A stretch of 64,000 nt of DNA from an uncultured Actinomycetota bacterium (lineage in GTDB: Bacteria; Actinomycetota; Actinomycetes; Propionibacteriales; Propionibacteriaceae). Below, piece by piece: positions 27,077 through 58,447 of this stretch. The DNA lies in contig CAVUFZ010000003.1 in the NCBI GenBank assembly GCA_963740925.1, forward strand, positions 337,605 to 401,604. The letters run 5' to 3'. The position numbers and the translations under genes are program-made. Every line of letters begins with the position of its first letter. Position 1 is the first letter of the stretch. The notes beneath the pieces are model-generated. The model was given only the letters and a program-made list of their open reading frames with translations, made no database searches and had not been told where the DNA came from.

Positions 27077-27433
27077 CTAGGCTCCCGTCTTGATCGCGAG
27101 GACGGGAACGGGCGAATCCAGCAGCAGTTGCTGACTCACGCTGCCGAAGATCGCCTTGCCGAGCGGACTCCGATGCCGTAGCCCGATCACCAATCGAGTG
27201 ACGTCAGGGTGCTCCGCCAGATAGCCGAGCACCACATCTGCCGGCTCGTGTTCTTCAGCGGACCTCTCGACCAGAACCAGGTCGACCCCGGTGGGCAGGC
27301 TCTCTTTGCTCAGCTTATCCAACCCGAAATTGATCACGACGAGATCTGTCCCGAACGTGCGCGCTTCATCTGCGGCGGCCCGCAACGGGGACCACCCTTC
27401 GGAACTCCCCGGGATGGCGGCGAGAATCGTCAT
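27077..27433 (-). CDS. universal stress protein (single short USP domain)
   Basis: LVIGLRHRSPLGKAIFGSVSQQLLLDSPVPVLAIK; RBS GAAGGA before ATG 27433. Confidence 0.88.
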   Translation of the reverse strand: MTILAAIPGSSEGWSPLRAAADEARTFGTDLVVINFGLDKLSKESLPTGVDLVLVERSAEEHEPADVVLGYLAEHPDVTRLVIGLRHRSPLGKAIFGSVSQQLLLDSPVPVLAIKTGA

Positions 27434-27515
27434 AGTTCCTTCTTCCACTGCTTGATGGAGAACTGCCCCTCTCTCCGCAGGGGGAAGGGCAGCTCAGGTC
27501 GACGGCTGCTGAGAC

Positions 27516-28946
27516 CTAGGCGTTGGCTGACCCTGCGGCGGCAGGGACTCGAAGGTGTGCCTCAAGGCTCTCGAGGCTGTGGCCCTTCGTCTCGGGGGCG
27601 ACTCGGAAGATGAAGAAGATGGATACGAGGTTGATGGCCGCGAAGAGCAGGAACGTGACCGTCGAACCCAGGGCGGCGGCCGTCGGCGGGAAAGCGTAGG
27701 AGATCGCGCCGTTGACCGCCCAGACGAAGAACACTGACAGCCCCATGGCGAACCCACGAATGGCCAGCGGAAAGATCTCGGAGAGCATGAGCCAGATGCC
27801 GGTGCCGATGAAACACTGGACGAAGGCGACGAAGACCATCATGGCGGCCAGGATGACGTAGCTGCGAACACTGGATTGAGGCAGCAGGAAGACGAGGGCC
27901 AGGGTGACTTGGGACGAGGCCACGCCGATGAAGCCGGTCAGGAGCATCTTGCGCCGTCCGACAAAGCCCAGCAGCCAGATACCCACGATCGTCATGATCA
28001 CCGAGGTAGCGCCGATGGCGATCGTCGAGACCAACGCCGCCTGGTCGCCCAGGCCACTGTCGGCAAGAATCGTTGTGCCGTAGTAGTTCACAGTATTGAT
28101 GCCAGTGGCCTGCTGCACAGCGGCCAGACCAGCGCCGATCCACAGAAGTCGACGCATCCAGGGGTTCTCCCGCAGCACCTGGCCGATCGACATACGGGCG
28201 GCAGACTTGTCTTCACTTGCGAGGTGGGCAACTTCGCCCAGTTCGCGCTCGGCCTCGGCGTCGCTACGACTCCGGTGCAGAACGGCGCGCGCCTCTACGG
28301 TCCGACCCTTCAGGGCGAGCCAACGGGGGGATTCAGGCAGGACGAACATGCCGATAATCAGGCCGATCGCGGGGATGGCGGCGATGCCGAGCATGACGCG
28401 CCATTCGCCTTGACCCTGATGAAGCGCACCGATGATGGCGTTGATGGCGAACGCGAGCAGTTGGCCGGTCACGATCATGAGCTCATTGATGGTCACCATG
28501 CGAGCGCGGCCGTTCACCGGCGCCATCTCAGCCAGGTACACCGGGCAGATGACAGCGGCTGCTCCTACGCCGAGACCCAAGAGGAAGCGGAAGATCACCA
28601 GGAAAGCAAACCCCGGCGAGAGAGCGCAACCCGAGGCTCCCACCAAGAAGATGACGCCACAGATCATCAGGGTTCGCCGCCGGCCCAGGCGATCGGCGAT
28701 CCGCCCCGCCAGGAGGGCGCCCAGTGCTGCCCCGGGAAGCAGAAGAATCCCGACCGCGACAGCGGTCTGTCCCGTGGACAAACCGAGGTCCTTGGGCATT
28801 GTGAGCAGCGCTCCGGCGATCACACCGGTGTCGTAGCCGAAGAGCAAGCCGCCCAAGGTGGAAATGATCGTCAACCGGACCAGGAAACTCCGGGCTTTCG
28901 GTGTGAGGCGCTCGGACGTGATGCCCGAGGAATGACTGGCTGACAT
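27516..28946 (-). CDS. iolT: sugar porter family MFS, IolT-like
   Basis: LGGLLFGYDTGVIAG, ADRLGRR, VYLAEMAP, PESPRWL, QQATGIN..NYYG and PETKG. Confidence 0.85.
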   Translation of the reverse strand: MSASHSSGITSERLTPKARSFLVRLTIISTLGGLLFGYDTGVIAGALLTMPKDLGLSTGQTAVAVGILLLPGAALGALLAGRIADRLGRRRTLMICGVIFLVGASGCALSPGFAFLVIFRFLLGLGVGAAAVICPVYLAEMAPVNGRARMVTINELMIVTGQLLAFAINAIIGALHQGQGEWRVMLGIAAIPAIGLIIGMFVLPESPRWLALKGRTVEARAVLHRSRSDAEAERELGEVAHLASEDKSAARMSIGQVLRENPWMRRLLWIGAGLAAVQQATGINTVNYYGTTILADSGLGDQAALVSTIAIGATSVIMTIVGIWLLGFVGRRKMLLTGFIGVASSQVTLALVFLLPQSSVRSYVILAAMMVFVAFVQCFIGTGIWLMLSEIFPLAIRGFAMGLSVFFVWAVNGAISYAFPPTAAALGSTVTFLLFAAINLVSIFFIFRVAPETKGHSLESLEAHLRVPAAAGSANA

Positions 28947-29606: not shown

Positions 29607-30149
29607 CTAACCCGTCCTGCCCGCGTCGGGGGCGAACCGGTCCCGGTCGTAGGTGACGTCGTGGTAGCCGTGCGGCGCGGGTCGCCCGGCCTCGTCCAGT
29701 CCGACGAAGACGATCGTGCTGATGGTCAAGATCGACGAGCGGGTGATCATGTTGCGGACCTGCGCCTGCATCGTGATCGAGGTCCGCCCGAACGCGGTCG
29801 CCCGGAGGCCCATCTCGACCAGATCACCCTGCCGAGCGGAGCTGACGAAGTCGATCTCGGAGATGAGCTTGGTCACCACTCGGGGGTTGCCGAGCTGCAT
29901 GATCGCGTAGATCGTGGCCTCCTCGTCGATCCACTTCAGCAGGCTGCCGCCGAACAGAGTTCCGTTGGCGTTCAGGTCCTCGGGTCGGATCCACTTTCGC
30001 GTATAGAAGTTGATCGGCGCTGCACCGGCGGCGTCGTCGGGGGGCGTTGAGCCGGCCGGTCGAGACGCCACCTCACCGAAGACGTCGCTGTCCGAGCCGG
30101 CCTCTCCTGCCGCTCCATGTCCCTGGCCGACGCCCTTGGGCGCGGTCAT
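29607..30149 (-). CDS. hotdog-fold acyl-CoA thioesterase (start uncertain)
   Basis: RKWIRPEDLNANGTLFGGSLLKWIDEEA and VTKLISEIDFVSSARQGD. Confidence 0.88.
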   Translation of the reverse strand: MTAPKGVGQGHGAAGEAGSDSDVFGEVASRPAGSTPPDDAAGAAPINFYTRKWIRPEDLNANGTLFGGSLLKWIDEEATIYAIMQLGNPRVVTKLISEIDFVSSARQGDLVEMGLRATAFGRTSITMQAQVRNMITRSSILTISTIVFVGLDEAGRPAPHGYHDVTYDRDRFAPDAGRTG

Positions 30150-30537: not shown

Positions 30538-30999
30538 TCAGACCGCACTGGCGGCGTTCAGCGGGTTGTCCGCCACCGTCTCCGACATCGACTCCAGCAA
30601 CTGTGCGACGAGGGCGAGGACCATAGTGTCCTGCCGCATGATCGACTGACCGAACGGGCCTCGCGCCCGCGCGAACGACGACCCCACTCGCAGAATCGCC
30701 TGCTTCGTCTCGCTCCGGTCCGGCCCGGGAACACGCTCCAGCAGATCGGCGACCTGATTCAGACCGGAAACGATCGAGCGGCCGTCCAGGGCGAACTGGT
30801 CGAACATCCAGTTGCGGTTGCGACTGACGGCGTCGAGCAACTGCCAACTGAGCGCACCCCGCTCCGGCGCGTCGTCCACGGCCCGCCAGAACGCCTTCTG
30901 CTCCGGCTCGTCCAGATGGTCACGACCGACCATGGCGCTGACCACCCACAGCGGCGCGAACTGCAGCGTCTGCCATTCGCGCTCTGACCAGTTGCTCAT
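30538..30999 (-). CDS. hypothetical protein (153 aa)
   Basis: High-GC3 codon pattern and globular composition; no motif recognised. Confidence 0.6.
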   Translation of the reverse strand: MSNWSEREWQTLQFAPLWVVSAMVGRDHLDEPEQKAFWRAVDDAPERGALSWQLLDAVSRNRNWMFDQFALDGRSIVSGLNQVADLLERVPGPDRSETKQAILRVGSSFARARGPFGQSIMRQDTMVLALVAQLLESMSETVADNPLNAASAV

Positions 31000-31083
31000 C
31001 AACCCACTACCCGCCGTCTTCAGCCCGAACGCAACGAGACGATCGGCGCCGACCACTCGTGCCCGCCTCTTCGCCCGGCACGA

Positions 31084-31464
31084 TCAAAGGGACGCCCGAG
31101 TGGGAATCTTCACCGTCAGGACGGGGACCGGAGACTGGAGCAGGAGCCGTTGGGTCACGCTGCCCAGCACCGCCTTGCCGACGGGGGTCCGCTTGCGCAT
31201 CCCCAGGACGAGCCGTGCGATGTCCCGCTCGGCGATCTCGTCCAGCACGGCCTCGACCGGGTCGCGGTCGTCGGGCCCGCTGCGCTCCAGCACGGTGACC
31301 GAGAGGTCGGTGCCGTCGGGCAACTCCAGTGGCGCGGCGGCGAACGACCCCAAGCTCAGATGCAGAACCACCAGATCGGTCCGCAGCAGTCGGGCCTCGG
31401 CGACCGCGGCCGTCAGCGCGGCCTGACCCTCGGCGTTGTCGGCCACGACGACCAGCACGCTCAT
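31084..31464 (-). CDS. universal stress protein (single short USP domain)
   Basis: MSVLVVVADNAEG...LVLGMRKRTPVGKAVLGSVTQRLLLQSPVPVLTVK; ATGA overlap with the upstream transporter. Confidence 0.88.
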   Translation of the reverse strand: MSVLVVVADNAEGQAALTAAVAEARLLRTDLVVLHLSLGSFAAAPLELPDGTDLSVTVLERSGPDDRDPVEAVLDEIAERDIARLVLGMRKRTPVGKAVLGSVTQRLLLQSPVPVLTVKIPTRASL

Positions 31465-32906
31465 CGGGCGGTCACCTTCGCGCCGCCGTTCTCGCCGGCT
31501 TCGCGCCGGAAGCGCTCCTCCAACTGCTCGAGGGAAAAGCCCCGGGTCTCGGGGACGAACCGCCAGGCGAACAGCAGGCCGCAAGCGTTCAGCGCGGCGA
31601 AGATGAAGAACGTCGGAGAGATGCCGAGTGCGGCGACCACCGGCGGGAAAGCCGCGGCCACGCCCGCGTTGGCCAGCCACAGCACCAGGATCGAGATACC
31701 CATGGCCAGGCTGCGGATCTTCAGCGGGAACAACTCCGAGATCATCAGCCAGACCAGCGGACCGAGCGTGCCCTGCATCGAGAAGACGAAGAGCACCACG
31801 AAGATCAACACCACCACGGCCTTGACGATGCCGTCCGGCAGCAGCGAGGCCGACAGACCGACCAGCAGGTGGAAGAAGGTGACCAGGCTGAAGCCGGCGA
31901 TCAGCATCGTCCGTCGGTTCAGCTTGTTGATCAGGGCGATGCCGGTCAGACAGCCGGCCAGGCTGAACACCCCGTTGAGGATGTTGGCCAGGATCGCTCC
32001 GCTGGCCGAGAAGCCGGCTGTGGTCAGCAACTGGGTGCCGTAGTACATGATCGAGTTGATGCCGGTGAGCTGCTGGAACACCCCGAGCAGGGCGCCGATG
32101 ACGATCAGCTTCCTGATCCACGGCACCGAGAGATCGGTGGCCCCGCCGGTCTTGGCCTTCTTCTCCTCGTCGGCCAGCGCCCGCACCTCGGCCATCTCGG
32201 CCTCGGCCCGCTCGTCGGTGCGGACCTGTTTCAGCACGGCCAGCGCCTCCTCGTCGCGGCCCTGGGCGACCAGCCAGCGGGGACTCTCCGGCATCCGTAA
32301 CATCCCGATGAACAAGGCGACCGCAGGCAGTACGGCAACGAGCAGCATCACCCGCCAGATGCTTTCGACCTGGCCCCAGATCTGGTAGATCACCGCATTG
32401 ATGACGAAGGCGGCGAACTGACCGCTGACGATCATCACCTCGTTGCGGCTGACCAGGCTGCCGCGGCGCTCGAACGGGGCCACCTCGGCCAGGTAGGCCG
32501 GCACCGTCGCCGATGCGCCACCCACGGCCAGCCCGAGGATGAACCGGAAGCCGGCCAGCACCTCCCACGTCGGCGACAGCACCTCCCCGATGGTGCCGAC
32601 CATGAAGATGATCGACAGCATGATGATGTTGTGCCGACGGCCCTGCTTGTCCGACAACATCCCACCGAACAGCGCTCCGATGGCTGCACCGAAGATCAGC
32701 ACGCTGACCACGAACCCCTCGATCCCCGGGGTCAGGCCGAGGTCGGTGCGTAGCGGTTCGAGGGCGCCGTTGATGACGCCGGTGTCGTAGCCGAACAGGA
32801 GTCCGCCGAAGGTGGCGACGACAGCGATCGTCCCCAGCCGTCGAGAATGCGGGCCCCGGGTGTCCGGGGGTAGATCGATCGTGGGGCTCACCGTGTCGTG
32901 CGCCAT
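31461..32906 (-). CDS. iolT: sugar porter family MFS, IolT-like
   Basis: FGGLLFGYDTGVINGAL, SDKQGRR, AYLAEVAP, PESPRWL, QQLTGINSIMYYG and PETRG; RBS GGAGGA before ATG 32906. Confidence 0.9.
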   Translation of the reverse strand: MAHDTVSPTIDLPPDTRGPHSRRLGTIAVVATFGGLLFGYDTGVINGALEPLRTDLGLTPGIEGFVVSVLIFGAAIGALFGGMLSDKQGRRHNIIMLSIIFMVGTIGEVLSPTWEVLAGFRFILGLAVGGASATVPAYLAEVAPFERRGSLVSRNEVMIVSGQFAAFVINAVIYQIWGQVESIWRVMLLVAVLPAVALFIGMLRMPESPRWLVAQGRDEEALAVLKQVRTDERAEAEMAEVRALADEEKKAKTGGATDLSVPWIRKLIVIGALLGVFQQLTGINSIMYYGTQLLTTAGFSASGAILANILNGVFSLAGCLTGIALINKLNRRTMLIAGFSLVTFFHLLVGLSASLLPDGIVKAVVVLIFVVLFVFSMQGTLGPLVWLMISELFPLKIRSLAMGISILVLWLANAGVAAAFPPVVAALGISPTFFIFAALNACGLLFAWRFVPETRGFSLEQLEERFRREAGENGGAKVTAR

Positions 32907-39279: not shown

Positions 39280-39290
39280 CTCTGCCTCTC

Positions 39291-47838: not shown

Positions 47839-47848
47839 TGTTCGTACA
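47839..47848. promoter_or_regulatory. IolR-like box TGTTCGTACA between gntR and usp
   Basis: TGT-N4-ACA box in an AT-rich divergent intergenic region. Confidence 0.5.
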
Positions 47849-47894
47849 TAATGACAAGACTTGTTTGTCCAACCGTCTTGATCGGAGTTCGCAG

Positions 47895-48308
47895 ATGACC
47901 GTCGCGGTAGCCCATCAGGCAGCCTCCAACGCCCGGACGATCGCGCTGCAGGAAGCAGCCCGCGAGGCGGGGGCCCGAGCCACCGATCTGGTCGTTCTGC
48001 ACGTCGTCGAAGCTCTCGATCTGGACATCGAGGCCGCCTACCGCAGCGGACTCTCCGACGAGATCGAGCAGGCACTGGCCAGCCAGGACGTCTCCTCGGT
48101 GCCGTGGACGCTGAAGCTGGCGGCCTCCACCAAGGACGATGACGTCGCTGAGCAGATCCTGCGACTGGCCGACGAAGCGAAGGCCGAGGTTCTCGTCATC
48201 GGGGCCCGACGACGATCGCCCCTCGGCAAGTTCCTGATGGGCTCAGCCACCCAGACGCTCATCCTGGAGGCCAAGATGCCCGTCGTCGTGGTCAAGGCGC
48301 CGGCCTGA
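47895..48308 (+). CDS. universal stress protein
   Basis: LVIGARRRSPLGKFLMGSATQTLILEAKMPVVVVK. Confidence 0.88.
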   Translation: MTVAVAHQAASNARTIALQEAAREAGARATDLVVLHVVEALDLDIEAAYRSGLSDEIEQALASQDVSSVPWTLKLAASTKDDDVAEQILRLADEAKAEVLVIGARRRSPLGKFLMGSATQTLILEAKMPVVVVKAPA

Positions 48309-49403: not shown

Positions 49404-49445
49404 CTCGTCACAGATCAAGCACCACTCGTCACAGATCAAGCACCA
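49404..49445. repeat. perfect 21-bp tandem duplication of the P450 gene 3' end
   Basis: ctcgtcacagatcaagcacca at 49404-49424 and 49425-49445. Confidence 0.9.
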
Positions 49446-51757: not shown

Positions 51758-51809
51758 TTGACACCCGCCGCGCAATGTTCATACCCTGACATCTCCTAGA
51801 GCGCTCTAG
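51758..51809. promoter_or_regulatory. promoter TTGACA-N18-TACCCT (+) and perfect LacI-type palindrome CTAGAGCGCTCTAG (51796-51809)
   Basis: 14-bp perfect palindrome with central CG between the divergent P450 and isomerase genes. Confidence 0.75.
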
Positions 51810-52900: not shown

Positions 52901-54121
52901 TCAGCCGAGCGGGACCCATCGGCGCTCGGCCGCCGAGGTCGCCATCGCGTCGACCACCCGGGCCACGCTCAGTGCGTCCTCGATCGTCGCACCGGAGACG
53001 ATGCCGGTGCTGATCGAGGTCAGCAGCCGGCGGGCCTCGATCACCTTCAGGTCGTCATAGCTCATCGAGGTCGCCGAACCCGGCTGGAAGACCCGGTACT
53101 CGCCGTCGCCGGGCCGGGCCAGCCGGGTCTGGGTGAACGCGTCGGTGTAGCCCTGATCGAGGCAGACCTGCAACTCCCCCATCCGGCGGAAATCCCAGGC
53201 CAGCGAGCCGCGGTCGCCGTGCACCTCGATGCCGTAGCGGTTCTGGTCGCCGACGGAGACCCGGCTCGATTCGAGCGTCCCGCGGGCCCCGCCGGCCAGC
53301 CGCAGCAGCGCCGAGACGTGATCCTCGTTCTCCACCGGGCCGGGTTCACCGGTGCCGACCGCGCCGTGACCGGTGCTGGCCGCGGCGAGCCGGCGCCGTT
53401 GCGGGATGAAGATCGCGGTGTCGGCGACCACCTCCTCGACCTCGCCGACGACGTAGCGGGCCAGGTCGACGCCGTGGCTGACCAGGTCGCCCAGCACCCC
53501 AGAGCCCGCCCACTGGTTCTCATACCGCCAGGTCAGGGCGCCGTCGGGATCGGCGGCGTAGTCGGAGCAGAAGGTGATCCGGACCGTCTCGATCCGGCCG
53601 AGCCGCCCGTCGGCCACCAGCCCGCGGGCCGCCTCGACCGCCGGCGCGTTGCGGTAGTTGAAGCCGGCGGCGCTCTGCACCCCGGCCTCGGCCACCGCGG
53701 CCGCGATCTCCGCGGTCTCCCCGCTGTTGCGTCCGGCCGGCTTCTCGATCCACAGGTGTTTGCCGGCCCGGGCCACGGCCACGCCGACGTCGCGGTGGAC
53801 GAAGTTCGGCCCGGTCACGCTGACCAGGTCGATGTCGTCCCGGTCGACCAGCTCACGCCAGTCGGTGTGCACGTCGGCGAAGCCGTAGGCCTCGACCGCA
53901 GCCCGCAGTCGTTCGTCGGTGGCGTTGTCGGCCACGGCCACGAACTCGATCGGTGCGTTGTCCGGGTAGTACTGCCGGACCCTGCTGTAGGCCCGGGAAT
54001 GCACTTGGCCCATCCAGCCGAAGCCGACGACGCCGACCCGGATCGGACGGATCCGCTCGGCCGCAGCAGGATCGACAGCAGGATCGACAGCAGCAGGATC
54101 GACGGCGGGGTCGACAGTCAT
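52901..54121 (-). CDS. Gfo/Idh/MocA oxidoreductase
   Basis: GVVGFGWMGQVH, IEKP, GFNYR and GVLGDLVSHGVD; N-terminal VDPA repeats. Confidence 0.9.
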   Translation of the reverse strand: MTVDPAVDPAAVDPAVDPAAAERIRPIRVGVVGFGWMGQVHSRAYSRVRQYYPDNAPIEFVAVADNATDERLRAAVEAYGFADVHTDWRELVDRDDIDLVSVTGPNFVHRDVGVAVARAGKHLWIEKPAGRNSGETAEIAAAVAEAGVQSAAGFNYRNAPAVEAARGLVADGRLGRIETVRITFCSDYAADPDGALTWRYENQWAGSGVLGDLVSHGVDLARYVVGEVEEVVADTAIFIPQRRRLAAASTGHGAVGTGEPGPVENEDHVSALLRLAGGARGTLESSRVSVGDQNRYGIEVHGDRGSLAWDFRRMGELQVCLDQGYTDAFTQTRLARPGDGEYRVFQPGSATSMSYDDLKVIEARRLLTSISTGIVSGATIEDALSVARVVDAMATSAAERRWVPLG

Positions 54122-54164: not shown

Positions 54165-55181
54165 TCAGCCGCGGCTGCGCAGCTCGTCCAGCCGGACCGG
54201 ACGGTGCTCGCGCCAGGACAAGGTGGCGGCCTCGGCGACCCAGCTGGCCTCCAGCCCGTCGACCACCGTGCACGGGGTCGGCCGCTCGCCCGCGACCACC
54301 TCGCAGAAGGCGGCCATCTCGGCAGCGAAGGCGGTGGCCAACCGGTCCATGAAGAAGGTGTGGGCCGGACCGGGCGGGAATTCGGTGGCCGGATCGGCCG
54401 AGCGCATCGGCAGCCCGGCGTCCAGGCCGGCGGCGATCGAGCCGTCCGAGCCGTGCAACTCCAACCGGACGTCGTAGCCCTCGGCGTTGTAGCGGGTGTT
54501 GGAGACCACGCCGATGGCCCCGTCGTCGAAGGTCAGCAGGGTGGAGGCCGTGTCGGCGTCGCCGAGCTCGGTGAACCACTTCTCACCGCGGTTCGAGCCG
54601 ACCGCATAGACCTCGACCACCTCGCGGCCCGACGCCCAGCGGACGGCGTCGAAGTCGTGGATGGCGCAGTCGTGGAAGATGCCGCCGGAGCGGGCGATGT
54701 AGGCCGCGGGCGGCGGCGCCGGATCCATGGTGGTGGAGCGGATGGTGGACAACCAGCCGAGCTCACCGCCGTCCAGGGCGGCCTTGGCGGCGACGAACGC
54801 CGGGTCGAAGCGCCGCGGGAAACCGATCTGGACGCTGACCTGGGAGTCGGCGACGAAACCGGCCAGATCCGCGGTGGCGTAGGGATCCCCGGAGACCGGC
54901 TTCTCACAGAAGGTGGTGATGCCGGCGCCGACGCTGGCCCGCAGCAACTCCAGGTGGGAGTCGGTGGAGGAGGCGATCAGGACGCCGTCCACCCCGGCGG
55001 CCAGCAGCGCCTCCGGGGAATCGGCGACGCTGACCGAGGTGCCGCTGAGCCGTCCGGCCGCCTGCTCGGCGACGCCGGGCACGACGTCGGCCAGCACCAG
55101 CTCGTCCACCCGCTCCAGACCGCTGAGCGTGGTGGCGTGGTACGCCCCGATCCGACCCAGCCCGATGATGCCGATCCGCAT
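54165..55181 (-). CDS. Gfo/Idh/MocA inositol dehydrogenase-like oxidoreductase
   Basis: GIIGLGRIG, FCEKP, QIGFPRRFD and SGGIFHDCAIHDFD. Confidence 0.9.
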   Translation of the reverse strand: MRIGIIGLGRIGAYHATTLSGLERVDELVLADVVPGVAEQAAGRLSGTSVSVADSPEALLAAGVDGVLIASSTDSHLELLRASVGAGITTFCEKPVSGDPYATADLAGFVADSQVSVQIGFPRRFDPAFVAAKAALDGGELGWLSTIRSTTMDPAPPPAAYIARSGGIFHDCAIHDFDAVRWASGREVVEVYAVGSNRGEKWFTELGDADTASTLLTFDDGAIGVVSNTRYNAEGYDVRLELHGSDGSIAAGLDAGLPMRSADPATEFPPGPAHTFFMDRLATAFAAEMAAFCEVVAGERPTPCTVVDGLEASWVAEAATLSWREHRPVRLDELRSRG

Positions 55182-55263
55182 TGACCCACTCCCCGTTCGT
55201 CGACCCGGCCGTGGAGACTCTCCGGCGGCCCAGCGCCCGCTCGTGCGGACGCTCACCTCATGT

Positions 55264-55273
55264 TGTCAGGACA
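55264..55273. promoter_or_regulatory. IolR-like box TGTCAGGACA upstream of the dehydrogenase at 55181
   Basis: Identical 10-mer to the box at 42589-42598. Confidence 0.6.
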
Positions 55274-55305: not shown

Positions 55306-56085
55306 TCAGTCGTGCGCACCGGGGACGTTCTGGTCCCAGTCGATCACCGATCCGGTCACCACGCCGCTGTCGGGTGAGAGCAGCAGGACGGCCAACCGGG
55401 CCACCTCGTCCGGTTCGATCAGCTGCCCCATCGGCAACCGGTCGGCCGCCTGATCGGCCCAGCCGTCCTCGGCCTGGTGGAACCGGCGCTGGATCTCGTC
55501 CTCGCCCTCGGTCCGGGTCCAGCCGAGGTTGATCCCGTTCACCCGGATCTTGTCCCAGCGGTGAGCATGGGCGACGTTCTTGGTCAACCCGATCAGCCCG
55601 GCCTTGGTCGCGGCGTAGGCGGCCAGATAGGGCTGACCGCCGAGCGCGCTCATGGTGATCACGTTGACGATCGACCCGGCCGCCTCACGACGGAGCAGAT
55701 CGGCCACCACCGCCTGCATCAGGAAGAACGGACCGCGCAGGTTGACCGCGACGTGGTCGTCGAACAACTCCGGCGTGGTCTCCAGCAGCGTGCCCCGAGT
55801 CGTCAGCCCGGCCGCGTTCACCAGGCCGTCCACCCGGCCGAACCGCCGCACCAGCTCGGCCACCACCGTGCGTCCGGACTCGACGTCACCGGCGTCGCCG
55901 GCCAGATAGACGGCCTCGGCGGAGCCTGCCGCACGCAGTTCTTCGACCGCGGCCTCACCCCGCTCGGCACGTCGGCCGGTGACGGCCACGGTGGCCCCGG
56001 CACGGGCGGCGGCCCGGCCGATGGCCAGACCGACACCCTGGGTGCCGCCGCTGATCAGGATCACCTTGTCGTTCAGGTCAGCCAT
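55306..56085 (-). CDS. short-chain dehydrogenase/reductase
   Basis: ISGGTQGVG, LVNAAG and catalytic YAATK. Confidence 0.93.
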   Translation of the reverse strand: MADLNDKVILISGGTQGVGLAIGRAAARAGATVAVTGRRAERGEAAVEELRAAGSAEAVYLAGDAGDVESGRTVVAELVRRFGRVDGLVNAAGLTTRGTLLETTPELFDDHVAVNLRGPFFLMQAVVADLLRREAAGSIVNVITMSALGGQPYLAAYAATKAGLIGLTKNVAHAHRWDKIRVNGINLGWTRTEGEDEIQRRFHQAEDGWADQAADRLPMGQLIEPDEVARLAVLLLSPDSGVVTGSVIDWDQNVPGAHD

Positions 56086-56093: not shown

Positions 56094-57311
56094 TCAGATC
56101 TCGTCGGTACGGTGCCGGACGCCGTAGCCGTCCAGATCGGCCTGCAGCTGGTCGGCGCTGGCCTCAGCGGCCAGCGACTGCTCCAGCAGGGCCGCCTGGG
56201 ACAGCGGAGTCAGGCCGTCCACGTTGTGGTCCAGATCGAGGTTGGTGGGGAACGGGTACCCCTCGGCGGCGCAGGCGATCGCGTTGTGCAGCAGGGAATC
56301 CGCGACCCCGGCCGCCCGGCGGGACTGCAGCGCCGGATAGATCGCACGGCTGATCTTGGCCCGGTCGACGCTCTCCATCGCCCGGCCGAAGGCGGAGGAA
56401 ACCTGCAGCAGGTTGGCCATCCGCTGCACGTCGGTGGAGACGTTGTTGCCGGCCCCGTGGAACAGCGCGGGGTTGAAGAAGGCGGCGTCGCCCTTGGCCA
56501 AGGGCAGCTGGACGTAGTGGTGGTTGAAGTAGTCCCGGAATTCGGGCCGCCGCCAGGCCAGGTAGCCCGGGCCGTAGGTGTGGGAGTAGGGCAGATACAT
56601 CGTCGGGCCGCTCTCCACCGGCATGTCGGAGTGCGCGACCGCCCCCTGCAGGGTGAGGACGGGCGAGAGCAGATGGACGTGCGCCGGGTAGCTCGCCGCG
56701 ACCTCGTTGGAGAGGAAGCCGAGATGGTAGTCGCGGTGCGGATCCTGGGCCTTGCCGCCGGGCCGGACCTGGTTGACCTGGGACGTCAGCTGAAAACCGG
56801 GGCCGAGCCAGGCGGTGCTGATCAGCGCCAGCAGTTCGTTGCCGTAGTAGTCGACGAATGTCTCGGGATCACGGACGGCCAGCTTCTCCAGCGCGTTCCA
56901 GACCCGGTCGTTGGCCCCGGCCTTGGCGAAGTGGTCGTTGCCACCGCCCCCGTGCTCTGCGGCCGCGGCCTTCTCGTCGGCGATGATCGCGTCGAAGGCG
57001 GCGGTGGCCCGGTCGACGACCGACGTGTCGGCGAAGGCGCCCTTCAGGGCGACGATGCCGGGCCCTTCGGTCAGCGCACGGACGAGCTCGGCCTCGACGG
57101 CCTGACGCCCTTGGACCGAAGCGAGCTCGCGGCGCAGCCGGGCGCTGTCGTAGACCAGCACGTTCTGGACGACGTCGGCGGCGAACGGGTAGTCCGTCAC
57201 CTCGGTGCGTCGATCGAGGGAGGCGACGAACTCATCCAGCCGGCAGTCGTCTTCGGTGAAACGGCCGGGGATGGTGGTGGCCGCGGACGGGGTGGGTGCG
57301 GTAGTGGTCAT
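56094..57311 (-). CDS. phytanoyl-CoA dioxygenase (PhyH) family Fe(II)/2-oxoglutarate-type dioxygenase
   Basis: Facial triad PHRDYH...FHGAG; TAGGCT -10 lies 7 nt before the ATG. Confidence 0.85.
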   Translation of the reverse strand: MTTTAPTPSAATTIPGRFTEDDCRLDEFVASLDRRTEVTDYPFAADVVQNVLVYDSARLRRELASVQGRQAVEAELVRALTEGPGIVALKGAFADTSVVDRATAAFDAIIADEKAAAAEHGGGGNDHFAKAGANDRVWNALEKLAVRDPETFVDYYGNELLALISTAWLGPGFQLTSQVNQVRPGGKAQDPHRDYHLGFLSNEVAASYPAHVHLLSPVLTLQGAVAHSDMPVESGPTMYLPYSHTYGPGYLAWRRPEFRDYFNHHYVQLPLAKGDAAFFNPALFHGAGNNVSTDVQRMANLLQVSSAFGRAMESVDRAKISRAIYPALQSRRAAGVADSLLHNAIACAAEGYPFPTNLDLDHNVDGLTPLSQAALLEQSLAAEASADQLQADLDGYGVRHRTDEI

Positions 57312-57433
57312 GTCCGAAAGCCTAGAGAATCCGGCCCGGGCGATACGATGCGAAAACCATCAAAAAGACCTCAGGCGGTCCGCTCCCGGTTCCAGGTCCG
57401 GGTCGACCGAAACGCTTGGACAAGGGGCGAACC

Positions 57434-58447
57434 GTGCATCGACACCGGATCCGGACCATCGCCGAGCAGGCTGGGCTGAGCGAGGCCACCGTGGACCGGG
57501 TGCTGAACGGGCGTCCCGGGGTCCGGGCGTCCACCGTGGCCGAGGTGGGCCGGGCCGTCGACGAACTCGACCGGCAACGCGACCAGATCCGACTCGGCAA
57601 GCGCCGGTTCCTGATCGATCTGGTGATGCAGGCCCCGGCCCGGTTCAGCTCGGTCGTCCAGCGCGCGCTGGAGGCCGAACTGCCGAATCTGGCCCCGGCG
57701 GCGATCCGCTGCCGCTTCCACCTCCGCGAAGAGGGCCGGCCGGCTGACGTCGCCGAGGTGTTGGCCCGGGTCGGTCGTCGCGGCTCGGCCGGTGTCCTGC
57801 TGAAGGCACCCGACGATCCCCGGATCGTCGAGGCGGTGGATTCTCTGCAGCAGCAGGGAATCCCGGTGGTCACCCTGGTCACCGATCTGGTCGACAGCCG
57901 GCGGGTCGGCTATGTCGGCATGGACAACCGGGCCGCCGGCGCGACCGCCGGCTATCTGATGCACCACCTGTCTCCCGACCGGTCGCGCGGCGTGCTGATC
58001 ACGCTGAGCCGGACCAGCTTCCGCGGCGAGGAAGAACGAGAAGCCGGCTTCCGGGCCCTGCTCGCCGAGCTCGAGCCGGAACGGCCGGTGGTCGAGGTGA
58101 CCGAGACCGACGGGCTGGACACCGTCCTGCTGCGGATGGTGTCGGTGGCCCTGGCCGAGCATCCCCACCTCGGCGCCGTCTACTCCGTCGGCGGCGGCAA
58201 CCTCGCCATCCTGGAGGCGTTCCGGCAGGCCGGCCGTCGAGCCGATCCGTTCCTGGCCCACGATCTGGACGCCGACAACCGGGCGCTGCTGCGGCAACGT
58301 CGGATCACCGCCGTGCTGCATCACGATCTGCGCGCCGATCTCCGGTCAGCCTGCCAGCTGGTGCTTCGGGTACACGGCGCGTTACCCGGTCCGCCGCTCG
58401 CTTCGCCATCCGCGATCCAGGTGGTGACCCCGTTCAACGCCCCGTGA
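57434..58447 (+). CDS. LacI family transcriptional regulator
   Basis: IRTIAEQAGLSEATVDRVLNGR, YVGMDN.AAG and HDL; divergent from the PhyH operon. Confidence 0.9.
   Translation: MHRHRIRTIAEQAGLSEATVDRVLNGRPGVRASTVAEVGRAVDELDRQRDQIRLGKRRFLIDLVMQAPARFSSVVQRALEAELPNLAPAAIRCRFHLREEGRPADVAEVLARVGRRGSAGVLLKAPDDPRIVEAVDSLQQQGIPVVTLVTDLVDSRRVGYVGMDNRAAGATAGYLMHHLSPDRSRGVLITLSRTSFRGEEEREAGFRALLAELEPERPVVEVTETDGLDTVLLRMVSVALAEHPHLGAVYSVGGGNLAILEAFRQAGRRADPFLAHDLDADNRALLRQRRITAVLHHDLRADLRSACQLVLRVHGALPGPPLASPSAIQVVTPFNAP

What the first reader, a model, noticed from the sequence alone, without database searches (positions are those of the whole stretch)
27077..58447. ~31 kb cyclitol region extending well beyond myo-inositol catabolism
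Seen: the core iol pathway plus four Gfo/Idh/MocA enzymes, three TIM-barrel isomerases, an SDR, two oxygenases, two sugar porters, an ABC importer, three regulators and three USPs. Knowledge: multiple dehydrogenases and isomerases funnel scyllo- and chiro-inositol into IolE; TIGR03089 and LCP genes are normally neighbours (Mtb Rv3267/Rv3268). Inference: the block was inserted into the envelope locus and has an oxidative front end for modified cyclitols feeding the IolR-controlled core.
Basis: partly seen in the sequence, partly recalled or inferred. Interest (0 to 1): 0.72.

Follow-up and report, generated by a model that had tools for sequence, protein, structure and literature searches.

The report
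Composite inositol locus with two oxygenase cassettes
A soil actinobacterium (family Propionibacteriaceae) carries an ordinary inositol-degradation operon at a recurrent insertion site among cell-envelope genes. In this lineage it is enlarged by transporters, extra inositol-type dehydrogenases and two separately regulated, uncharacterised oxygenase cassettes that may open up modified cyclitols or sugars.

Summary
The gene inventory is confirmed. The region holds a full iol core, four Gfo/Idh/MocA enzymes, three xylose-isomerase-type TIM barrels (one is the IolE candidate), an SDR and a P450-reductase fusion. It also holds a PhyH dioxygenase, two sugar porters, an ABC importer, GntR plus two LacI regulators, and three USPs.

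Synteny in 52 related Propionibacteriaceae loci supports insertion between TIGR03089 and GT2/LCP, but not as one 31-kb block. About 30 relatives carry the ~10-kb core (IolA to IolC, or at least its IolA-proximal part) at this site. Twelve show the empty junction. In one relative the accessory ABC-Gfo-SDR-Gfo-TIM genes lie beyond the LCP genes.

The window's region (really 25.3-58.5 kb) is therefore a mosaic. Predicted operators indicate three control units:
- IolR-like boxes sit at the core, ABC and IolR promoters and in front of Gfo_54k.
- A unique palindrome lies between the P450 and TIM genes.
- A unique conserved direct-repeat box lies between PhyH and its LacI.

Each oxygenase forms a widespread cassette with a LacI regulator. 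The cassettes often stand alone, but they recur beside inositol-type genes, and beside each other, in several lineages. An oxidative front end for modified cyclitols is plausible (about 0.35-0.4) but unproven. The core itself is ordinary.

The parts
24561..25298 (+). TIGR03089 family gene. It is the left anchor of the conserved envelope and F420 neighbourhood (CofE, ManC, TIGR03089).
   Evidence: NCBIfam TIGR03089 175 bits against a cutoff of 85. Collinear in 52 related loci.
25348..26685 (-). MFS_1 transporter, the first gene of the variable region. No relative has a match to it at this position.
   Evidence: Pfam. No tblastn match in L008-L059.
26788..26933 (.). Small repeat structure at the left edge. 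Two 25-nt direct copies lie 121 nt apart with an inverted copy between them, and there is a hairpin with 38-nt arms.
   Evidence: Two exact 19-mers found where 0.05 are expected by chance.
27077..27448 (-). Universal stress protein (USP1), immediately downstream of sugar porter 1.
   Evidence: Pfam Usp 49 bits.
27516..28946 (-). Sugar-porter MFS transporter 1 (IolT-like).
   Evidence: Pfam Sugar_tr 364 bits. TIGR00879 345 bits against a cutoff of 238.
29607..30149 (-). 4HBT-fold thioesterase, cargo with no evident cyclitol role.
   Evidence: Pfam 4HBT.
30538..31056 (-). 172-aa ORF with coding-like GC3 and no family match.
31084..31470 (-). Universal stress protein (USP3), immediately downstream of sugar porter 2.
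   Evidence: Pfam Usp 54 bits. Translation read.
31461..32906 (-). Sugar-porter MFS transporter 2 (IolT-like), last gene of the iol operon.
   Evidence: Pfam Sugar_tr 351 bits. 44% identical to porter 1.
32972..34477 (-). IolA, CoA-acylating methylmalonate/malonate-semialdehyde dehydrogenase.
   Evidence: TIGR01722 684 bits against a cutoff of 448. 84-88% identical in relatives.
34518..35384 (-). Xylose-isomerase-like TIM barrel (TIM_a), in the IolH/IolI/IolO-like position.
   Evidence: Pfam AP_endonuc_2 157 bits. Weak hits to IolO and TM0416.
35381..36496 (-). IolG-like inositol dehydrogenase. The true start is probably near 36370.
   Evidence: NF052679 271 bits and TIGR04380 204 bits, both below their cutoffs.
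36388..37314 (-). IolE-like inosose dehydratase (TIM barrel).
   Evidence: TIGR04379 143 bits over the full length, below the cutoff of 290.
37381..39501 (-). IolD, a TPP-dependent ring-cleaving hydrolase. The true start is near 39290.
   Evidence: TIGR04377 925 bits against a cutoff of 715.
39291..40334 (-). IolB, 5-deoxy-glucuronate isomerase.
   Evidence: TIGR04378 268 bits against a cutoff of 205.
40174..41259 (-). Cgl0159-like barrel. An aldolase role (IolJ analogue) is inferred from its position.
   Evidence: Pfam PF22649 412 bits.
41058..42083 (-). IolC, 5-dehydro-2-deoxygluconokinase.
   Evidence: TIGR04382 388 bits against a cutoff of 300.
42166..42555 (-). 4-oxalocrotonate-tautomerase-family protein, apparently the first gene of the core operon.
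   Evidence: Pfam Tautomerase_2. Seen at the same position in the four relatives whose fetched DNA reaches it.
42589..42598 (-). IolR-like box TGTCCTGACA, between a -35-like TTGATC and a -10-like TAGAAT of the tautomerase/iolC promoter.
   Evidence: The same box and promoter architecture occur in L008, L010, L032 and L056, and the box occurs upstream of the tautomerase gene in Geodermatophilus L001.
42680..45712 (-). Sugar-type ABC importer: ATPase 42680-43495, permease 43496-44563, binding protein 44636-45712.
   Evidence: Pfam. The binding protein's best NCBIfam hit is the rhizopine SBP at 174 bits, below the cutoff of 420.
45914..45947 (+). Two IolR-like boxes (TGTCTTAACA, TGTCTTGTCG) in the divergent promoter region between the binding-protein gene and Gfo_46k.
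46019..47056 (+). Gfo/Idh/MocA oxidoreductase Gfo_46k, of the YvaA/PRK11579 type.
   Evidence: NF008607 171 bits. PDB 3gdo (B. subtilis YvaA) E 1.5e-41.
47072..47872 (-). GntR/UTRA (HutC-type) regulator, the IolR candidate. The probable start is at 47812.
   Evidence: Pfam GntR plus UTRA. IolR-like box at 47852-47861 in its upstream region.
47838..48308 (+). Universal stress protein (USP2), followed 24 nt downstream by LacI_48k on the same strand.
   Evidence: Pfam Usp 71 bits.
48333..49352 (+). LacI-family regulator LacI_48k, convergent with the P450 gene.
   Evidence: Pfam LacI plus Peripla_BP_3. 43-49% identical to LacI genes next to P450 homologues in L001, L004 and L084.
49429..51663 (-). 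Self-sufficient P450: a heme domain fused to a phthalate-dioxygenase-reductase-like FMN/NAD and 2Fe-2S module (744 aa).
   Evidence: Pfam. Full-length alignment to CYP116B46 (6kbh) E 3e-131 and to PDR (2pia). Motifs FSEGMHGC, GGVEST, RQYS, GGIGITP and CAEGTCGTC read.
51796..51809 (.). Perfect 14-bp palindrome CTAGAGCGCTCTAG between the divergent P450 and TIM_51k genes, a candidate LacI operator.
   Evidence: Unique in the window at up to 3 mismatches. A related box lies upstream of the 77%-identical P450 in L062.
51871..52872 (+). TIM barrel TIM_51k, member of a family 76-88% conserved across Actinobacteria.
   Evidence: Pfam. Homologues. Its usual partner is an upstream LGDH-like Gfo gene.
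52901..54121 (-). Gfo/Idh/MocA Gfo_52k, of the levoglucosan-DH / scyllo-inositol-DH type.
   Evidence: NF052479 288 bits, below the cutoff of 650. PDB 6a3f E 8e-71 and 5ya8 E 1.6e-52.
54165..55256 (-). Gfo/Idh/MocA Gfo_54k, a second inositol 2-dehydrogenase-type enzyme.
   Evidence: TIGR04380 308 bits against a cutoff of 355. PDB 4hkt E 1e-59 and 3euw E 1e-47.
55264..55273 (-). IolR-like box TGTCCTGACA, 8 nt upstream of Gfo_54k inside the PhyH operon.
55306..56085 (-). Short-chain dehydrogenase (PRK06198 type).
   Evidence: NF004847 376 bits against a cutoff of 240. 66-70% identical homologues lie next to PhyH in L005 and next to P450 in L075.
56094..57311 (-). PhyH-family Fe(II)/2-oxoglutarate dioxygenase (405 aa), first gene of the PhyH-SDR-Gfo-Gfo operon.
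   Evidence: Pfam PhyH 113 bits. H192-x-D194 and H285 invariant in 31 homologues. AF2 model and Foldseek.
57357..57373 (-). Direct-repeat box TGAGGTCTTTTTGATGG in the intergenic region between PhyH and LacI_57k.
   Evidence: Conserved in the same position in L001, L005, L006, L007, L095 and L096. Unique in the window.
57416..58447 (+). LacI-like regulator LacI_57k with a Peripla_BP_4 sensor domain, divergent from PhyH.
   Evidence: Pfam. The divergent pairing is conserved in every PhyH locus examined.
58493..62560 (.). Right anchor: GT2 glycosyltransferase (58493-59473, minus strand) and two LCP genes (59572-61134 minus, 61058-62560 plus).
   Evidence: Pfam. GT2 or an LCP gene lies close to TIGR03089 in 12 related loci: directly after it in most of the eight GT2-type loci, about 1 kb beyond it in the four more distant ones.

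Best explanation
The region is a mosaic carbohydrate/cyclitol-utilisation locus built by stepwise accretion at one site, the convergent junction between TIGR03089 and the GT2/LCP envelope genes.

Shown:
1. A ~10-kb actinobacterial-type myo-inositol operon (tautomerase, IolC, Cgl0159 barrel, IolB, IolD, IolE, IolG, TIM, IolA) occupies this junction in many Propionibacteriaceae.
2. The window's lineage has two added arms. The left arm holds an MFS gene, two porter-USP pairs and a thioesterase. The 16-kb right arm holds an ABC importer, a YvaA-type Gfo, the GntR/UTRA regulator, USP, LacI, the P450-reductase fusion, a TIM barrel, two more inositol-type Gfo enzymes, an SDR, PhyH and a second LacI.
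3. Each oxygenase forms a conserved cassette with a LacI regulator, and each cassette is found widely in Actinobacteria.

Inferred from operator-like sequences: there are three control units.
- IolR-like boxes lie at the core operon, the ABC/Gfo_46k promoter region, the regulator's own promoter and in front of Gfo_54k-Gfo_52k.
- A unique palindrome serves the divergent P450 and TIM_51k genes, presumably bound by LacI_48k.
- A unique direct-repeat box serves PhyH-SDR-Gfo-Gfo, presumably bound by LacI_57k.

Inferred mechanism:
- Porters and the ABC system import inositols.
- IolG and the extra dehydrogenases, with the TIM isomerases, convert myo-, scyllo- and chiro-type isomers to 2-keto-myo-inositol.
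- IolE, IolD, IolB, IolC, the aldolase and IolA take this to DHAP, acetyl-CoA and CO2.
- The two oxygenases are single-step converters. By O-demethylation, C-H hydroxylation or oxidative deamination they turn substituted cyclitols or sugars into ordinary inositols or inososes for the SDR/Gfo/TIM module.

My confidence is about 0.85 for the mosaic and three-regulon architecture. It is about 0.35-0.4 for the oxygenases acting on cyclitol-like substrates.
For: Gene identities:
-.

Synteny:
- About 30 of 52 related loci have the core genes, in the window's order and orientation, directly after TIGR03089.
- Eight have TIGR03089 followed by GT2-LCP, and four more distant ones have TIGR03089 followed by LCP.
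- In L008, L010, L032 and L059 the core is followed directly by the GT2 C-terminus.
- In the genome of L056 the contig continues core | GT2-LCP-LCP | SBP-ABC-Gfo-SDR-Gfo-TIM_51k, with TIM_51k 88% identical.
- The gaps at this junction in relatives hold unrelated cargo such as DUF222, Rce1-like and NmrA-like genes.

Operators:
- Six of the seven matches to the IolR-like box lie in the 8.4% of the window that is intergenic.
- The box between -35 and -10 of the tautomerase promoter is conserved in four relatives, and a box also lies upstream of the tautomerase in Geodermatophilus.
- The PhyH box is conserved in six other loci and unique here.
- The P450 palindrome is unique here and has a relative in L062.

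Link between the oxygenases and carbohydrate or cyclitol genes:
- Both have LacI-family partners in essentially every locus with enough flank.
- P450 lies beside Gfo, TIM, SDR, IolA or inositol-type ABC genes in Geodermatophilus L001, L075, L080-L083, L084/L091 and the P0005 contig.
- PhyH lies beside an SDR (L005), a Gfo (L007), Gfo-TIM-Gfo (L095) and AKR plus ABC (L001).
- P450 and a LacI_57k-type gene co-locate in three lineages: the window, L001 and L080/L081.

Precedents:
- A P450 is known to demethylate a methoxy sugar (PMC6292453).
- A LacI-family repressor (IolQ) controls iolX in B. subtilis (PMC5504672).
Against: - Both cassettes occur alone among unrelated genes in most sampled loci. 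For P450: L002, L004, L060, L066, L068 and L073 and, on shorter contigs, L071 and L076-L079. For PhyH: L006 and L096. Linkage to iol genes is therefore facultative.
- No IolR-like box lies upstream of P450 or PhyH.
- The IolG-like and IolE-like proteins score below the NCBIfam equivalog cutoffs.
- The IolR motif was refined after I had seen the sites, and its match to the C. glutamicum consensus rests on my memory of Klaffl et al. 2013. It was not found in the searchable library.
- Gfo_52k and the usual partner of TIM_51k are as close to levoglucosan dehydrogenase as to scyllo-inositol dehydrogenase.
- Sequence and fold searches give no substrate clue for PhyH, TIM_51k or the P450.
- No expression data exist. 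The organism is known only from metagenomes.
Confidence: 0.55

Rival explanations
1. Co-location without functional linkage. The junction is an accretion hotspot. The LacI-P450 and LacI-PhyH cassettes act on substrates unrelated to inositol, for example other LacI-sensed small molecules or N- or O-methyl compounds. They landed next to the iol genes only because this site tolerates insertions.
For: - Both cassettes stand alone at unrelated loci in many genomes.
- They have private operators and no IolR box.
- The junction holds unrelated cargo in relatives, and a thioesterase and an unknown ORF here.
- In L002 and L060 the wider neighbourhood of the P450 contains Rieske/DAO or dimethylglycine-dehydrogenase-type genes.
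Against: - In at least four P450 lineages the cassette lies beside Gfo, TIM, SDR or inositol-type ABC genes.
- PhyH is repeatedly followed by SDR, Gfo or TIM genes in the same operon.
- The two cassettes co-locate with each other in three lineages.
- Here PhyH is the first gene of an operon whose last two genes are inositol-dehydrogenase-type and are preceded by an IolR-like box.
Confidence: 0.3
2. The right arm, or at least Gfo_52k, TIM_51k, the SDR and Gfo_54k, is an 'oxidise-then-eliminate' pathway of the levoglucosan / 3-keto-glycoside type. It would act on anhydrosugars, glycosides or ethers rather than on free cyclitols. A Gfo dehydrogenase makes a 3-keto intermediate, a TIM-barrel lyase eliminates the substituent, and a second reductase restores the sugar. 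This does not exclude cyclitol glycosides or ethers as substrates.
For: - The best solved relative of Gfo_52k is levoglucosan dehydrogenase 6a3f (E 8e-71), and NF052479 gives 288 bits.
- The conserved partner of TIM_51k in Arthrobacter globiformis and in L097 is an LGDH-like Gfo in the same operon under a LacI regulator.
- The levoglucosan pathway, as I recall it from the literature, uses exactly a Gfo enzyme plus xylose-isomerase-like TIM barrels plus a second Gfo.
Against: - The LGDH model score is far below its cutoff of 650.
- The same protein matches Paracoccus scyllo-inositol dehydrogenase (E 1.6e-52).
- Gfo_54k is clearly IDH-like and preceded by an IolR-like box.
- TIM_51k has no detectable similarity to any solved LgdB-type protein.
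- The A. globiformis locus also carries an inositol-type binding protein.
Confidence: 0.2
3. One recent horizontal acquisition: the whole ~31 kb arrived as a single genomic island in this genome.
For: GC is lower (0.63-0.68) over 27-48 kb than in the flanks (0.70-0.74). The region interrupts a conserved gene pair.
Against: - The core is at the same site in about 30 species-level relatives, whereas the arms are not seen there.
- Right-arm homologues lie elsewhere in a relative.
- GC3 of most island genes (0.80-0.93) overlaps that of the flanks, and the 52-58 kb part has flank-like GC.
- There is no tRNA, integrase or flanking direct repeat (and the Pfam scans).
Confidence: 0.07
4. Assembly artefact: the arrangement is a chimera of a metagenome-assembled contig.
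For: The organism is known only from metagenomes, and the supporting contigs in the runs are short.
Against: - The source contig is 477 kb.
- The listed near-identical contigs of run X1 match stretches throughout 28.6-57.3 kb.
- Independent contigs span the Gfo_46k-GntR-USP-LacI stretch (46945-48833) and the LacI_57k/GT2 junction (58302-58562).
- The position of the core is reproduced in about 30 other assemblies.
Confidence: 0.03

Closest known systems
Corynebacterium glutamicum iol clusters (iolR; iolC-iolJ-iolA-iolB-iolD-iolE-iolG-iolH; iolT; oxi genes)
   Same: Both have an actinobacterial gene set with a Cgl0159-type barrel in place of the Bacillus IolJ. Both have a GntR-type IolR, sugar-porter IolT transporters and several Gfo/Idh/MocA paralogues. 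[quoted passage not shown] The boxes here fit the IolR consensus KGWCHTRACA as I recall it.
   Different: This locus adds an ABC importer, a tautomerase as first gene of the operon, USP genes paired with each porter, and two oxygenase cassettes with LacI regulators. Its IolG- and IolE-like proteins fall below the equivalog cutoffs.
Rhizopine (moc) catabolism loci of Sinorhizobium/Rhizobium (mocA, mocB, mocC, mocR, mocDEF)
   Same: The logic is the same, from my knowledge of the moc literature. An oxygenase system removes the O-methyl group of a substituted cyclitol. A Gfo/Idh/MocA dehydrogenase, a TIM barrel and an inositol-type binding protein then pass the product to the iol pathway. The binding protein here has the rhizopine SBP model as its best NCBIfam hit (174 bits).
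   Different: The oxygenases belong to different families: P450-PFOR and PhyH here, a desaturase-like/Rieske system there. There is no MocR-type regulator, and the SBP score is far below the cutoff of 420. This is an analogy, not membership.
Carbohydrate-demethylating P450s of marine Bacteroidetes (6-O-methyl-D-galactose demethylase; PMC6292453)
   Same: In both, a P450 sits in a sugar-utilisation locus. The marine enzyme converts a methoxy sugar to the plain sugar plus formaldehyde in a single step. That is the kind of reaction proposed here.
   Different: The marine enzymes use separate ferredoxin and reductase partners. The protein here is a self-sufficient PFOR fusion, closest in sequence to CYP116B-type enzymes. 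No substrate is known for it.
Class VII self-sufficient P450s (CYP116B / P450-RhF type)
   Same: The domain order is the same: heme domain, then FMN/NAD(H) domain, then 2Fe-2S domain. The protein aligns over its full length with CYP116B46 (6kbh) and with phthalate dioxygenase reductase. All cofactor motifs are present.
   Different: It is a distinct, tightly conserved clade, 69-78% identical among the 120 best hits. The named ones come from Geodermatophilus, Marmoricola, Streptosporangiaceae and Pseudonocardia. Its conserved LacI partner is not, to my knowledge, a known feature of CYP116B.
Levoglucosan dehydrogenase pathway (LgdA, LgdB1, LgdB2, LgdC)
   Same: A Gfo dehydrogenase of the same subfamily as Gfo_52k is paired with xylose-isomerase-like TIM barrels and a second Gfo.
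   Different: Scores are far below the equivalog cutoff. The TIM barrel here is unrelated at sequence level to solved structures. The context is inositol-type.

Membership tests
Bacterial myo-inositol catabolic (iol) pathway | IolD (TPP-dependent trihydroxycyclohexane-1,2-dione hydrolase) | tested here: met
   TIGR04377 925 bits against a cutoff of 715.
Bacterial myo-inositol catabolic (iol) pathway | IolB, IolC and IolA | tested here: met
   TIGR04378 268 against 205, TIGR04382 388 against 300, TIGR01722 684 against 448.
Bacterial myo-inositol catabolic (iol) pathway | IolG (inositol 2-dehydrogenase) and IolE (inosose dehydratase) at equivalog level | tested here: inconclusive
   The alignments are full-length but below the cutoffs. 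IolG-like: 271 against 540 and 204 against 355. IolE-like: 143 against 290. Gfo_54k: 308 against 355. Their position and conservation within the operon support the roles.
Bacterial myo-inositol catabolic (iol) pathway | 5-dehydro-2-deoxyphosphogluconate aldolase | tested here: inconclusive
   There is no IolJ-type hit. A Cgl0159-like barrel (Pfam 412 bits) sits between IolC and IolB. The aldolase role is inferred from position only.
IolR (GntR/HutC-type) regulon | GntR HTH plus UTRA regulator, with its operator at the promoters of iol genes | tested here: inconclusive
   The regulator is present. Boxes matching TGTCYTRWCA lie at five promoter regions. Six of seven matches are intergenic, and the box in the tautomerase promoter is conserved in relatives. 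Binding was not tested, and the motif was partly defined after I had seen the sites.
Class VII self-sufficient cytochrome P450 | Heme domain with the Cys-ligand loop, fused at its C-terminus to a PDR-like FMN/NAD(H) and 2Fe-2S reductase | tested here: met
PhyH-type Fe(II)/2-oxoglutarate dioxygenase | Jelly-roll fold with an HxD...H iron triad | tested here: met
   Pfam 113 bits. H192, D194 and H285 are invariant in 31 homologues. The AF2 model has pTM 0.84, and Foldseek places it among PhyH-type enzymes.
Rhizopine (moc) catabolism locus | MocB-type binding protein, MocR regulator and MocDEF oxygenase at equivalog level | tested here: not met
   The SBP scores 174 bits against a cutoff of 420. 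The GntR regulator scores only 37 bits to MocR. No desaturase or Rieske oxygenase is present.
Levoglucosan dehydrogenase pathway | LGDH at equivalog level | tested here: not met
   NF052479 gives 288 bits against a cutoff of 650.
Mobile genomic island | Integrase or transposase, a tRNA target, flanking direct repeats | tested here: not met
   No tRNA in the window. No integrase or transposase domain in any called gene. No shared sequence at the two junctions.

The most novel reading that the evidence does not exclude
The LacI-P450(PFOR) and LacI(BP_4)-PhyH pairs are two widespread, uncharacterised actinobacterial 'converter cassettes'. Each would sense a substituted cyclitol or sugar (for example pinitol and other O-methyl-inositols, quercitols or inosamines) and turn it in one oxidative step into an ordinary inositol or inosose. 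If so, they would supply a bacterial demethylase for plant methyl-cyclitols. I found no such enzyme described in the literature searched, though the one paper read (PMC9788770) tested only two vanB genes in an Erwinia strain and concluded that demethylation is not needed there.
Probability: 0.25. Interest if true: 0.7.

Novelty: new variant of a known kind. Interest (0 to 1): 0.5.

Why it matters
Methylated and otherwise modified cyclitols such as pinitol, ononitol, quebrachitol and quercitols are abundant plant and soil carbon sources. I found no bacterial enzyme described for the first step of their breakdown in the literature searched.

This locus ties two large, tightly conserved and unannotated oxygenase families to inositol-type dehydrogenases, isomerases and transporters. 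The PhyH search filled its scoring limit of 8000 proteins, the listed best hits being 70-77% identical. The P450 search gave 546 hits, the listed best being 69-78% identical. Each oxygenase comes with a sugar-type repressor and a recognisable operator.

That makes the question directly testable. The P450 is self-sufficient and needs only NADH. Related cassettes occur in named organisms: a Geodermatophilus strain (P450 and PhyH together) and Microlunatus and Kineococcus (PhyH).

The synteny result also documents a recurrent insertion hotspot inside the conserved TIGR03089 / GT2 / LCP cell-envelope neighbourhood of Actinobacteria.

If the cassettes prove unrelated to cyclitols, what remains is a routine iol operon with paralogous dehydrogenases.

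Tried and rejected
1. Rfam scan of 20-64 kb found no riboswitch or other RNA family.
2. tRNA scan found none, so this is not a tRNA-targeted island.
3. PDB sequence searches for PhyH, TIM_51k and TIM_a gave only weak hits. The only strong SDR hit is an uninformative structural-genomics entry.
4. An AlphaFold model of PhyH with Foldseek against the PDB gave only generic natural-product 2OG dioxygenases at TM 0.4-0.6. KanJ ranked 33rd. This gives no substrate clue.
5. Literature searches for a bacterial pinitol or methyl-inositol demethylase, for a LacI-linked P450 and for MocD/MocE returned nothing directly relevant. The IolR consensus string is not in the searchable library.
6. Sequencing-run search found only metagenomic DNA contigs and no RNA, so the induction test was impossible.
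7. An NCBIfam scan of the desaturase-like oxygenase next to the TIM_51k homologue in Arthrobacter globiformis found no family. Its likeness to MocD remains a recollection, not a test.
8. A comparison of the two island junctions with empty-site junctions found no duplicated target or shared terminator.
9. I considered and rejected the idea that low GC proves foreign origin. GC3 of the island genes overlaps the flanks, and the lowest total GC coincides with membrane-protein genes.

Full report
**Observation**

The window has high GC (0.70-0.74 in the flanks), with a dip to 0.63-0.68 between 27 and 48 kb. I called genes by third-position GC and scanned them against Pfam and NCBIfam. Every item in the finding is present.

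The core is a complete actinobacterial-type myo-inositol pathway on the minus strand:
- tautomerase 42166-42555
- IolC 41058-42083
- Cgl0159-like barrel 40174-41259
- IolB 39291-40334
- IolD 37381-39501
- IolE-like 36388-37314
- IolG-like 35381-36496
- a second TIM barrel 34518-35384
- IolA 32972-34477
- a sugar porter 31461-32906

IolA, IolB, IolC and IolD pass the NCBIfam equivalog cutoffs. The IolG-like and IolE-like proteins align over their full length but fall below them.

Around the core lie the other listed genes:
- a second porter (27516-28946)
- an ABC importer (42680-45712)
- three further Gfo/Idh/MocA genes (46019, 52901, 54165)
- a third TIM barrel (51871)
- an SDR (55306)
- a P450 fused to a phthalate-dioxygenase-reductase-like module (49429-51663)
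- a PhyH dioxygenase (56094)
- a GntR/UTRA regulator (47072)
- two LacI-type regulators (48333, 57416)
- three USPs

The third USP (31084-31470) is hidden inside a longer spurious ORF.

I make two small corrections. There are three xylose-isomerase-type barrels in total, one being the IolE candidate, so only two are additional. No Rfam family and no tRNA lie in the region.

**Where the window comes from**

The closest relatives of the flanking TIGR03089 protein are Propionibacteriaceae metagenome-assembled genomes at 40-55% identity. PhyH homologues at about 75% identity come from Microlunatus, Friedmanniella and other Propionibacteriaceae.

The public runs that hold this DNA appear to be metagenomes, with millions of short contigs each. 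They contain near-identical short contigs at sampled points along the whole region. One spans 46945-48833 and another spans the LacI/GT2 junction at 58302-58562. No RNA run exists, so expression could not be examined.

**Is it an insertion into the envelope locus?**

I ran tblastn with all window proteins against the 52 related loci. The left flank (a 1011-aa gene, then a 328-aa gene, CofE, ManC, TIGR03089) is collinear almost everywhere. Three states follow TIGR03089.

1. About 30 loci carry IolA, TIM, IolG, IolE, IolD, IolB, the Cgl0159 barrel, IolC and the tautomerase in the window's order and orientation, as far as the fetched DNA reaches.
2. Eight loci (L021, L030, L034, L038, L043, L046, L051, L052) have TIGR03089 followed by GT2 and LCP. 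Where the junction was read, the two convergent genes are mostly within a few tens of bases of each other.
3. Four more distant loci (Propionicimonas, Micropruina and relatives) have TIGR03089 followed by an LCP gene.

The same premise holds, from established knowledge, for M. tuberculosis Rv3267/Rv3268.

The inserted unit shared among relatives is only the ~10-kb core. In L008, L010, L032 and L059 the DNA just beyond the core encodes the C-terminus of GT2.

The window's MFS gene at 25348-26685, its porter-USP pairs and thioesterase, and its whole right arm from the ABC importer to LacI_57k have no counterpart at this site in those relatives. Where relatives have extra DNA between TIGR03089 and IolA, it encodes unrelated cargo such as DUF222, Rce1-like and NmrA-like proteins.

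One relative shows a further twist. The contig of L056 continues into L097. There the order is core, then GT2-LCP-LCP, then an operon SBP-ABC-Gfo-SDR-Gfo-TIM. Its TIM protein is 88% identical to TIM_51k and parts of its ATPase are 74-91% identical to the window's. Homologues of the right arm thus lie on the other side of the envelope genes.

The 33-kb variable region of the window is therefore a mosaic made by accretion and rearrangement at a hotspot. It is not one acquired block.

No integrase, tRNA or junction repeat was found. The GC3 of island genes overlaps that of the flanks.

**Regulatory anatomy**

I compared intergenic regions across loci.

PhyH. The spacer between PhyH and LacI_57k contains a direct-repeat box, TGAGGTCTTTTTGATGG. 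Versions of it recur at the same place in Microlunatus (L005), Kineococcus (L006), L007, L095, L096 and Geodermatophilus (L001). It occurs once in the window.

P450. The spacer between the divergent P450 and TIM_51k genes contains a perfect palindrome, CTAGAGCGCTCTAG. It is unique in the window at up to three mismatches. A closely related box lies upstream of the 77%-identical P450 in L062. Most other P450 homologues have a divergent LacI gene and TTGGAACGATCCA-type boxes instead.

IolR. A third motif, TGTCYTRWCA, fits the C. glutamicum IolR consensus as I remember it (KGWCHTRACA; Klaffl et al. 2013, not retrievable in the library). It lies at these places:
- between the -35 and -10 elements of the tautomerase/iolC promoter (42589)
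- twice in the region between the binding-protein gene and Gfo_46k (45914, 45938)
- upstream of the GntR gene (47852)
- 390 nt upstream of porter 1 (29337)
- 8 nt upstream of Gfo_54k inside the PhyH operon (55264)

Six of the seven matches at up to one mismatch are intergenic, while only 8.4% of the window is intergenic. The binomial P is about 2e-6. This is optimistic, because I refined the motif after seeing the sites.

The tautomerase-promoter box and its promoter elements are conserved in L008, L010, L032 and L056. A box also precedes the tautomerase gene in Geodermatophilus.

The inference is three regulons: IolR (core, transport, Gfo_46k, itself and probably Gfo_54k-Gfo_52k), LacI_48k (P450 and TIM_51k) and LacI_57k (PhyH-SDR-Gfo-Gfo). 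None of this binding has been tested.

**What the accessory enzymes resemble**

- Gfo_54k is closest to solved inositol 2-dehydrogenases (S. meliloti 4hkt, C. glutamicum 3euw) and nearly reaches the IolG cutoff, 308 against 355.
- Gfo_46k is closest to B. subtilis YvaA. I recall that this protein is the NADP-dependent scyllo-inositol dehydrogenase IolW.
- Gfo_52k sits between levoglucosan dehydrogenase (6a3f) and the Paracoccus scyllo-inositol/L-glucose dehydrogenase (5ya8).
- The binding protein's best model is the rhizopine SBP, though far below its cutoff.

[quoted passage not shown] A LacI-family repressor of an inositol dehydrogenase gene is known in B. subtilis (PMC5504672).

**The two oxygenases**

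The P450 has all the motifs of a class VII self-sufficient enzyme. It aligns end to end with CYP116B46.

It belongs to a distinct, tightly conserved clade. The search found 546 hits, and the 120 best listed are 69-78% identical. The named ones come from Geodermatophilus, Marmoricola, Streptosporangiaceae and Pseudonocardia.

Across 14 genomic and 32 metagenomic loci, a LacI gene is its neighbour wherever enough flank is available. In most loci the pair is otherwise surrounded by unrelated genes. In at least four lineages it lies beside inositol-type genes:
- Geodermatophilus L001: ABC importer 63-77% identical to the window's, PhyH, LacI_57k-like, three Gfo genes, a TIM barrel, a tautomerase with an IolR box, and a porter.
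- L075: homologues of Gfo_54k (60%), the SDR (66%) and Gfo_52k (48%), with a TIM barrel, a TPP enzyme and an aldolase.
- L080-L083: IolA, SBP-ABC, IolG-like, TIM, Gfo and IolE-like genes.
- L084, L091 and the P0005 contig: Gfo with or without a TIM barrel.

PhyH has an intact HxD...H triad, invariant in 31 homologues. A divergent LacI/Peripla_BP_4 gene accompanies it in every locus examined. Its other neighbours vary: nothing related (L006, L096), an SDR (L005), a Gfo (L007), Gfo-TIM-Gfo (L095), or an aldo-keto reductase plus an ABC importer (L001).

The P450 and a LacI_57k-type gene co-locate in three lineages: the window, L001 and L080/L081.

Sequence and fold searches give no substrate clue for PhyH.

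TIM_51k belongs to a family 76-88% conserved across Kineococcus, Sinomonas, Arthrobacter, Kocuria and others. Its usual partner is an upstream LGDH-like Gfo under a LacI regulator. In Arthrobacter globiformis this pair lies near an inositol-type binding protein, a PfkB kinase and a desaturase-family oxygenase with its reductase.

**Most likely mechanism**

Shown:
- the gene content
- the shared core at a recurrent junction
- the mosaic arms
- the conserved cassettes and their private operator-like boxes

Inferred:
- Inositols enter through two porters and the ABC system.
- IolG and the paralogous dehydrogenases, with the TIM isomerases, funnel stereoisomers to 2-keto-myo-inositol.
- The core then degrades this to DHAP, acetyl-CoA and CO2 under IolR control.

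More speculative (about 0.35-0.4): the P450 and PhyH are single-step converters of substituted cyclitols or sugars. The reaction could be O-demethylation, hydroxylation of a deoxy position or oxidative deamination. Each would be switched on by its own LacI-type sensor, and the products would pass to the SDR/Gfo/TIM module.

Three arguments support this reading:
- The regulators are of sugar type.
- The cassettes lie repeatedly and independently next to the same oxidoreductase module.
- Both cassettes can function alone in other genomes, which suits enzymes whose product is already a common nutrient.

Two precedents exist for the logic. One is the sugar-demethylating P450 of marine bacteria (PMC6292453). 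The other, from my own knowledge, is MocDEF in rhizopine catabolism.

Among the papers I retrieved, the pinitol study (PMC9788770) names no bacterial pinitol demethylase. For its Erwinia strain it concludes that demethylation is not required.

**Rivals**

1. The cassettes are unrelated cargo at a hotspot (0.3). Their frequent solitary occurrence and private regulation favour this. The recurrent co-location argues against it.
2. Gfo_52k and TIM_51k, with the SDR and Gfo_54k, form a levoglucosan-like oxidise-and-eliminate pathway for anhydrosugars, glycosides or ethers (0.2, and not exclusive of the main explanation).
3. The region is a single recent 31-kb island (0.07). The synteny largely refutes this.
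4. The arrangement is an assembly chimera (0.03).

**Novelty and verdict**

The iol core, the IDH paralogy and the IolR control are known biology. The hotspot within the TIGR03089/GT2/LCP neighbourhood is a modest synteny finding.

What is new is the link of two large, uncharacterised oxygenase-regulator cassettes to inositol-type genes, with defined candidate operators. I rate this a new variant of a known kind, since oxygenase-fronted cyclitol catabolism exists in the moc system. I give it an interest of 0.5.

Noticed in passing
window 27077-28946 and 31084-32906: Each of the two sugar porters is followed directly on the same strand by a small universal-stress-protein gene, giving two porter-USP pairs. 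A third USP precedes LacI_48k. This recalls USP-type modulators encoded in transporter operons, but I did not examine it further.
   Followed up: partly
window 42166-42555; L001 17106-17565; L008, L010, L032, L056: A 4-oxalocrotonate-tautomerase-family gene is the promoter-proximal gene of the iol operon. The IolR-like box sits between its -35 and -10 elements. The same gene-and-box pairing occurs in Geodermatophilus. No tautomerase step is part of the textbook iol pathway.
   Followed up: partly
window 26788-26933: A compact repeat structure lies at the left edge of the lower-GC segment. Two 25-nt direct repeats are 121 nt apart, an inverted copy lies between them, and there is a hairpin with 38-nt arms. 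It is not found elsewhere in the window. It could be an operator array for the MFS gene or a small mobile-element remnant.
   Followed up: partly
window 28947-29606 (especially 29161-29190): A 660-bp stretch without a convincing gene lies upstream of porter 1. It contains a tandem pair, ATCCATAATGGCGCC / ATCCATATTGGCGCC, carrying TGGCGCCA palindromes. This may be another regulator's operator.
   Followed up: no
L011 10791-12236; L022 12528-13727; L036 11522-13057: DUF222-family proteins occupy the gap between TIGR03089 and IolA in several relatives. I recall DUF222 being often associated with HNH endonucleases, which would suggest repeated invasion of this junction.
   Followed up: partly
L098 13033-18084 (Arthrobacter globiformis): An inositol-type binding protein (49% identical to the window's) lies beside a PfkB kinase and a fatty-acid-desaturase-family oxygenase with a 2Fe-2S reductase. 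A Gfo-TIM_51k pair is nearby. This may be a third type of oxygenase-fronted cyclitol locus.
   Followed up: partly
L002 12330-16089; L060 17307-20840: In two lineages where the LacI-P450 pair is otherwise isolated, the wider neighbourhood contains methyl-group metabolism genes. L002 has a DAO oxidase and a Rieske oxygenase. L060 has a homocysteine S-methyltransferase-like gene and a dimethylglycine-dehydrogenase-like gene. This may be coincidence or may hint at a demethylase role.
   Followed up: no
L097 5101-10004: Several genes of the relative's accessory operon are split or fused in the gene calls: the permease is in two pieces, a Gfo is in two pieces, and a 526-aa Gfo-TIM fusion is called. 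This suggests frameshift errors in that assembly rather than real pseudogenes.
   Followed up: no
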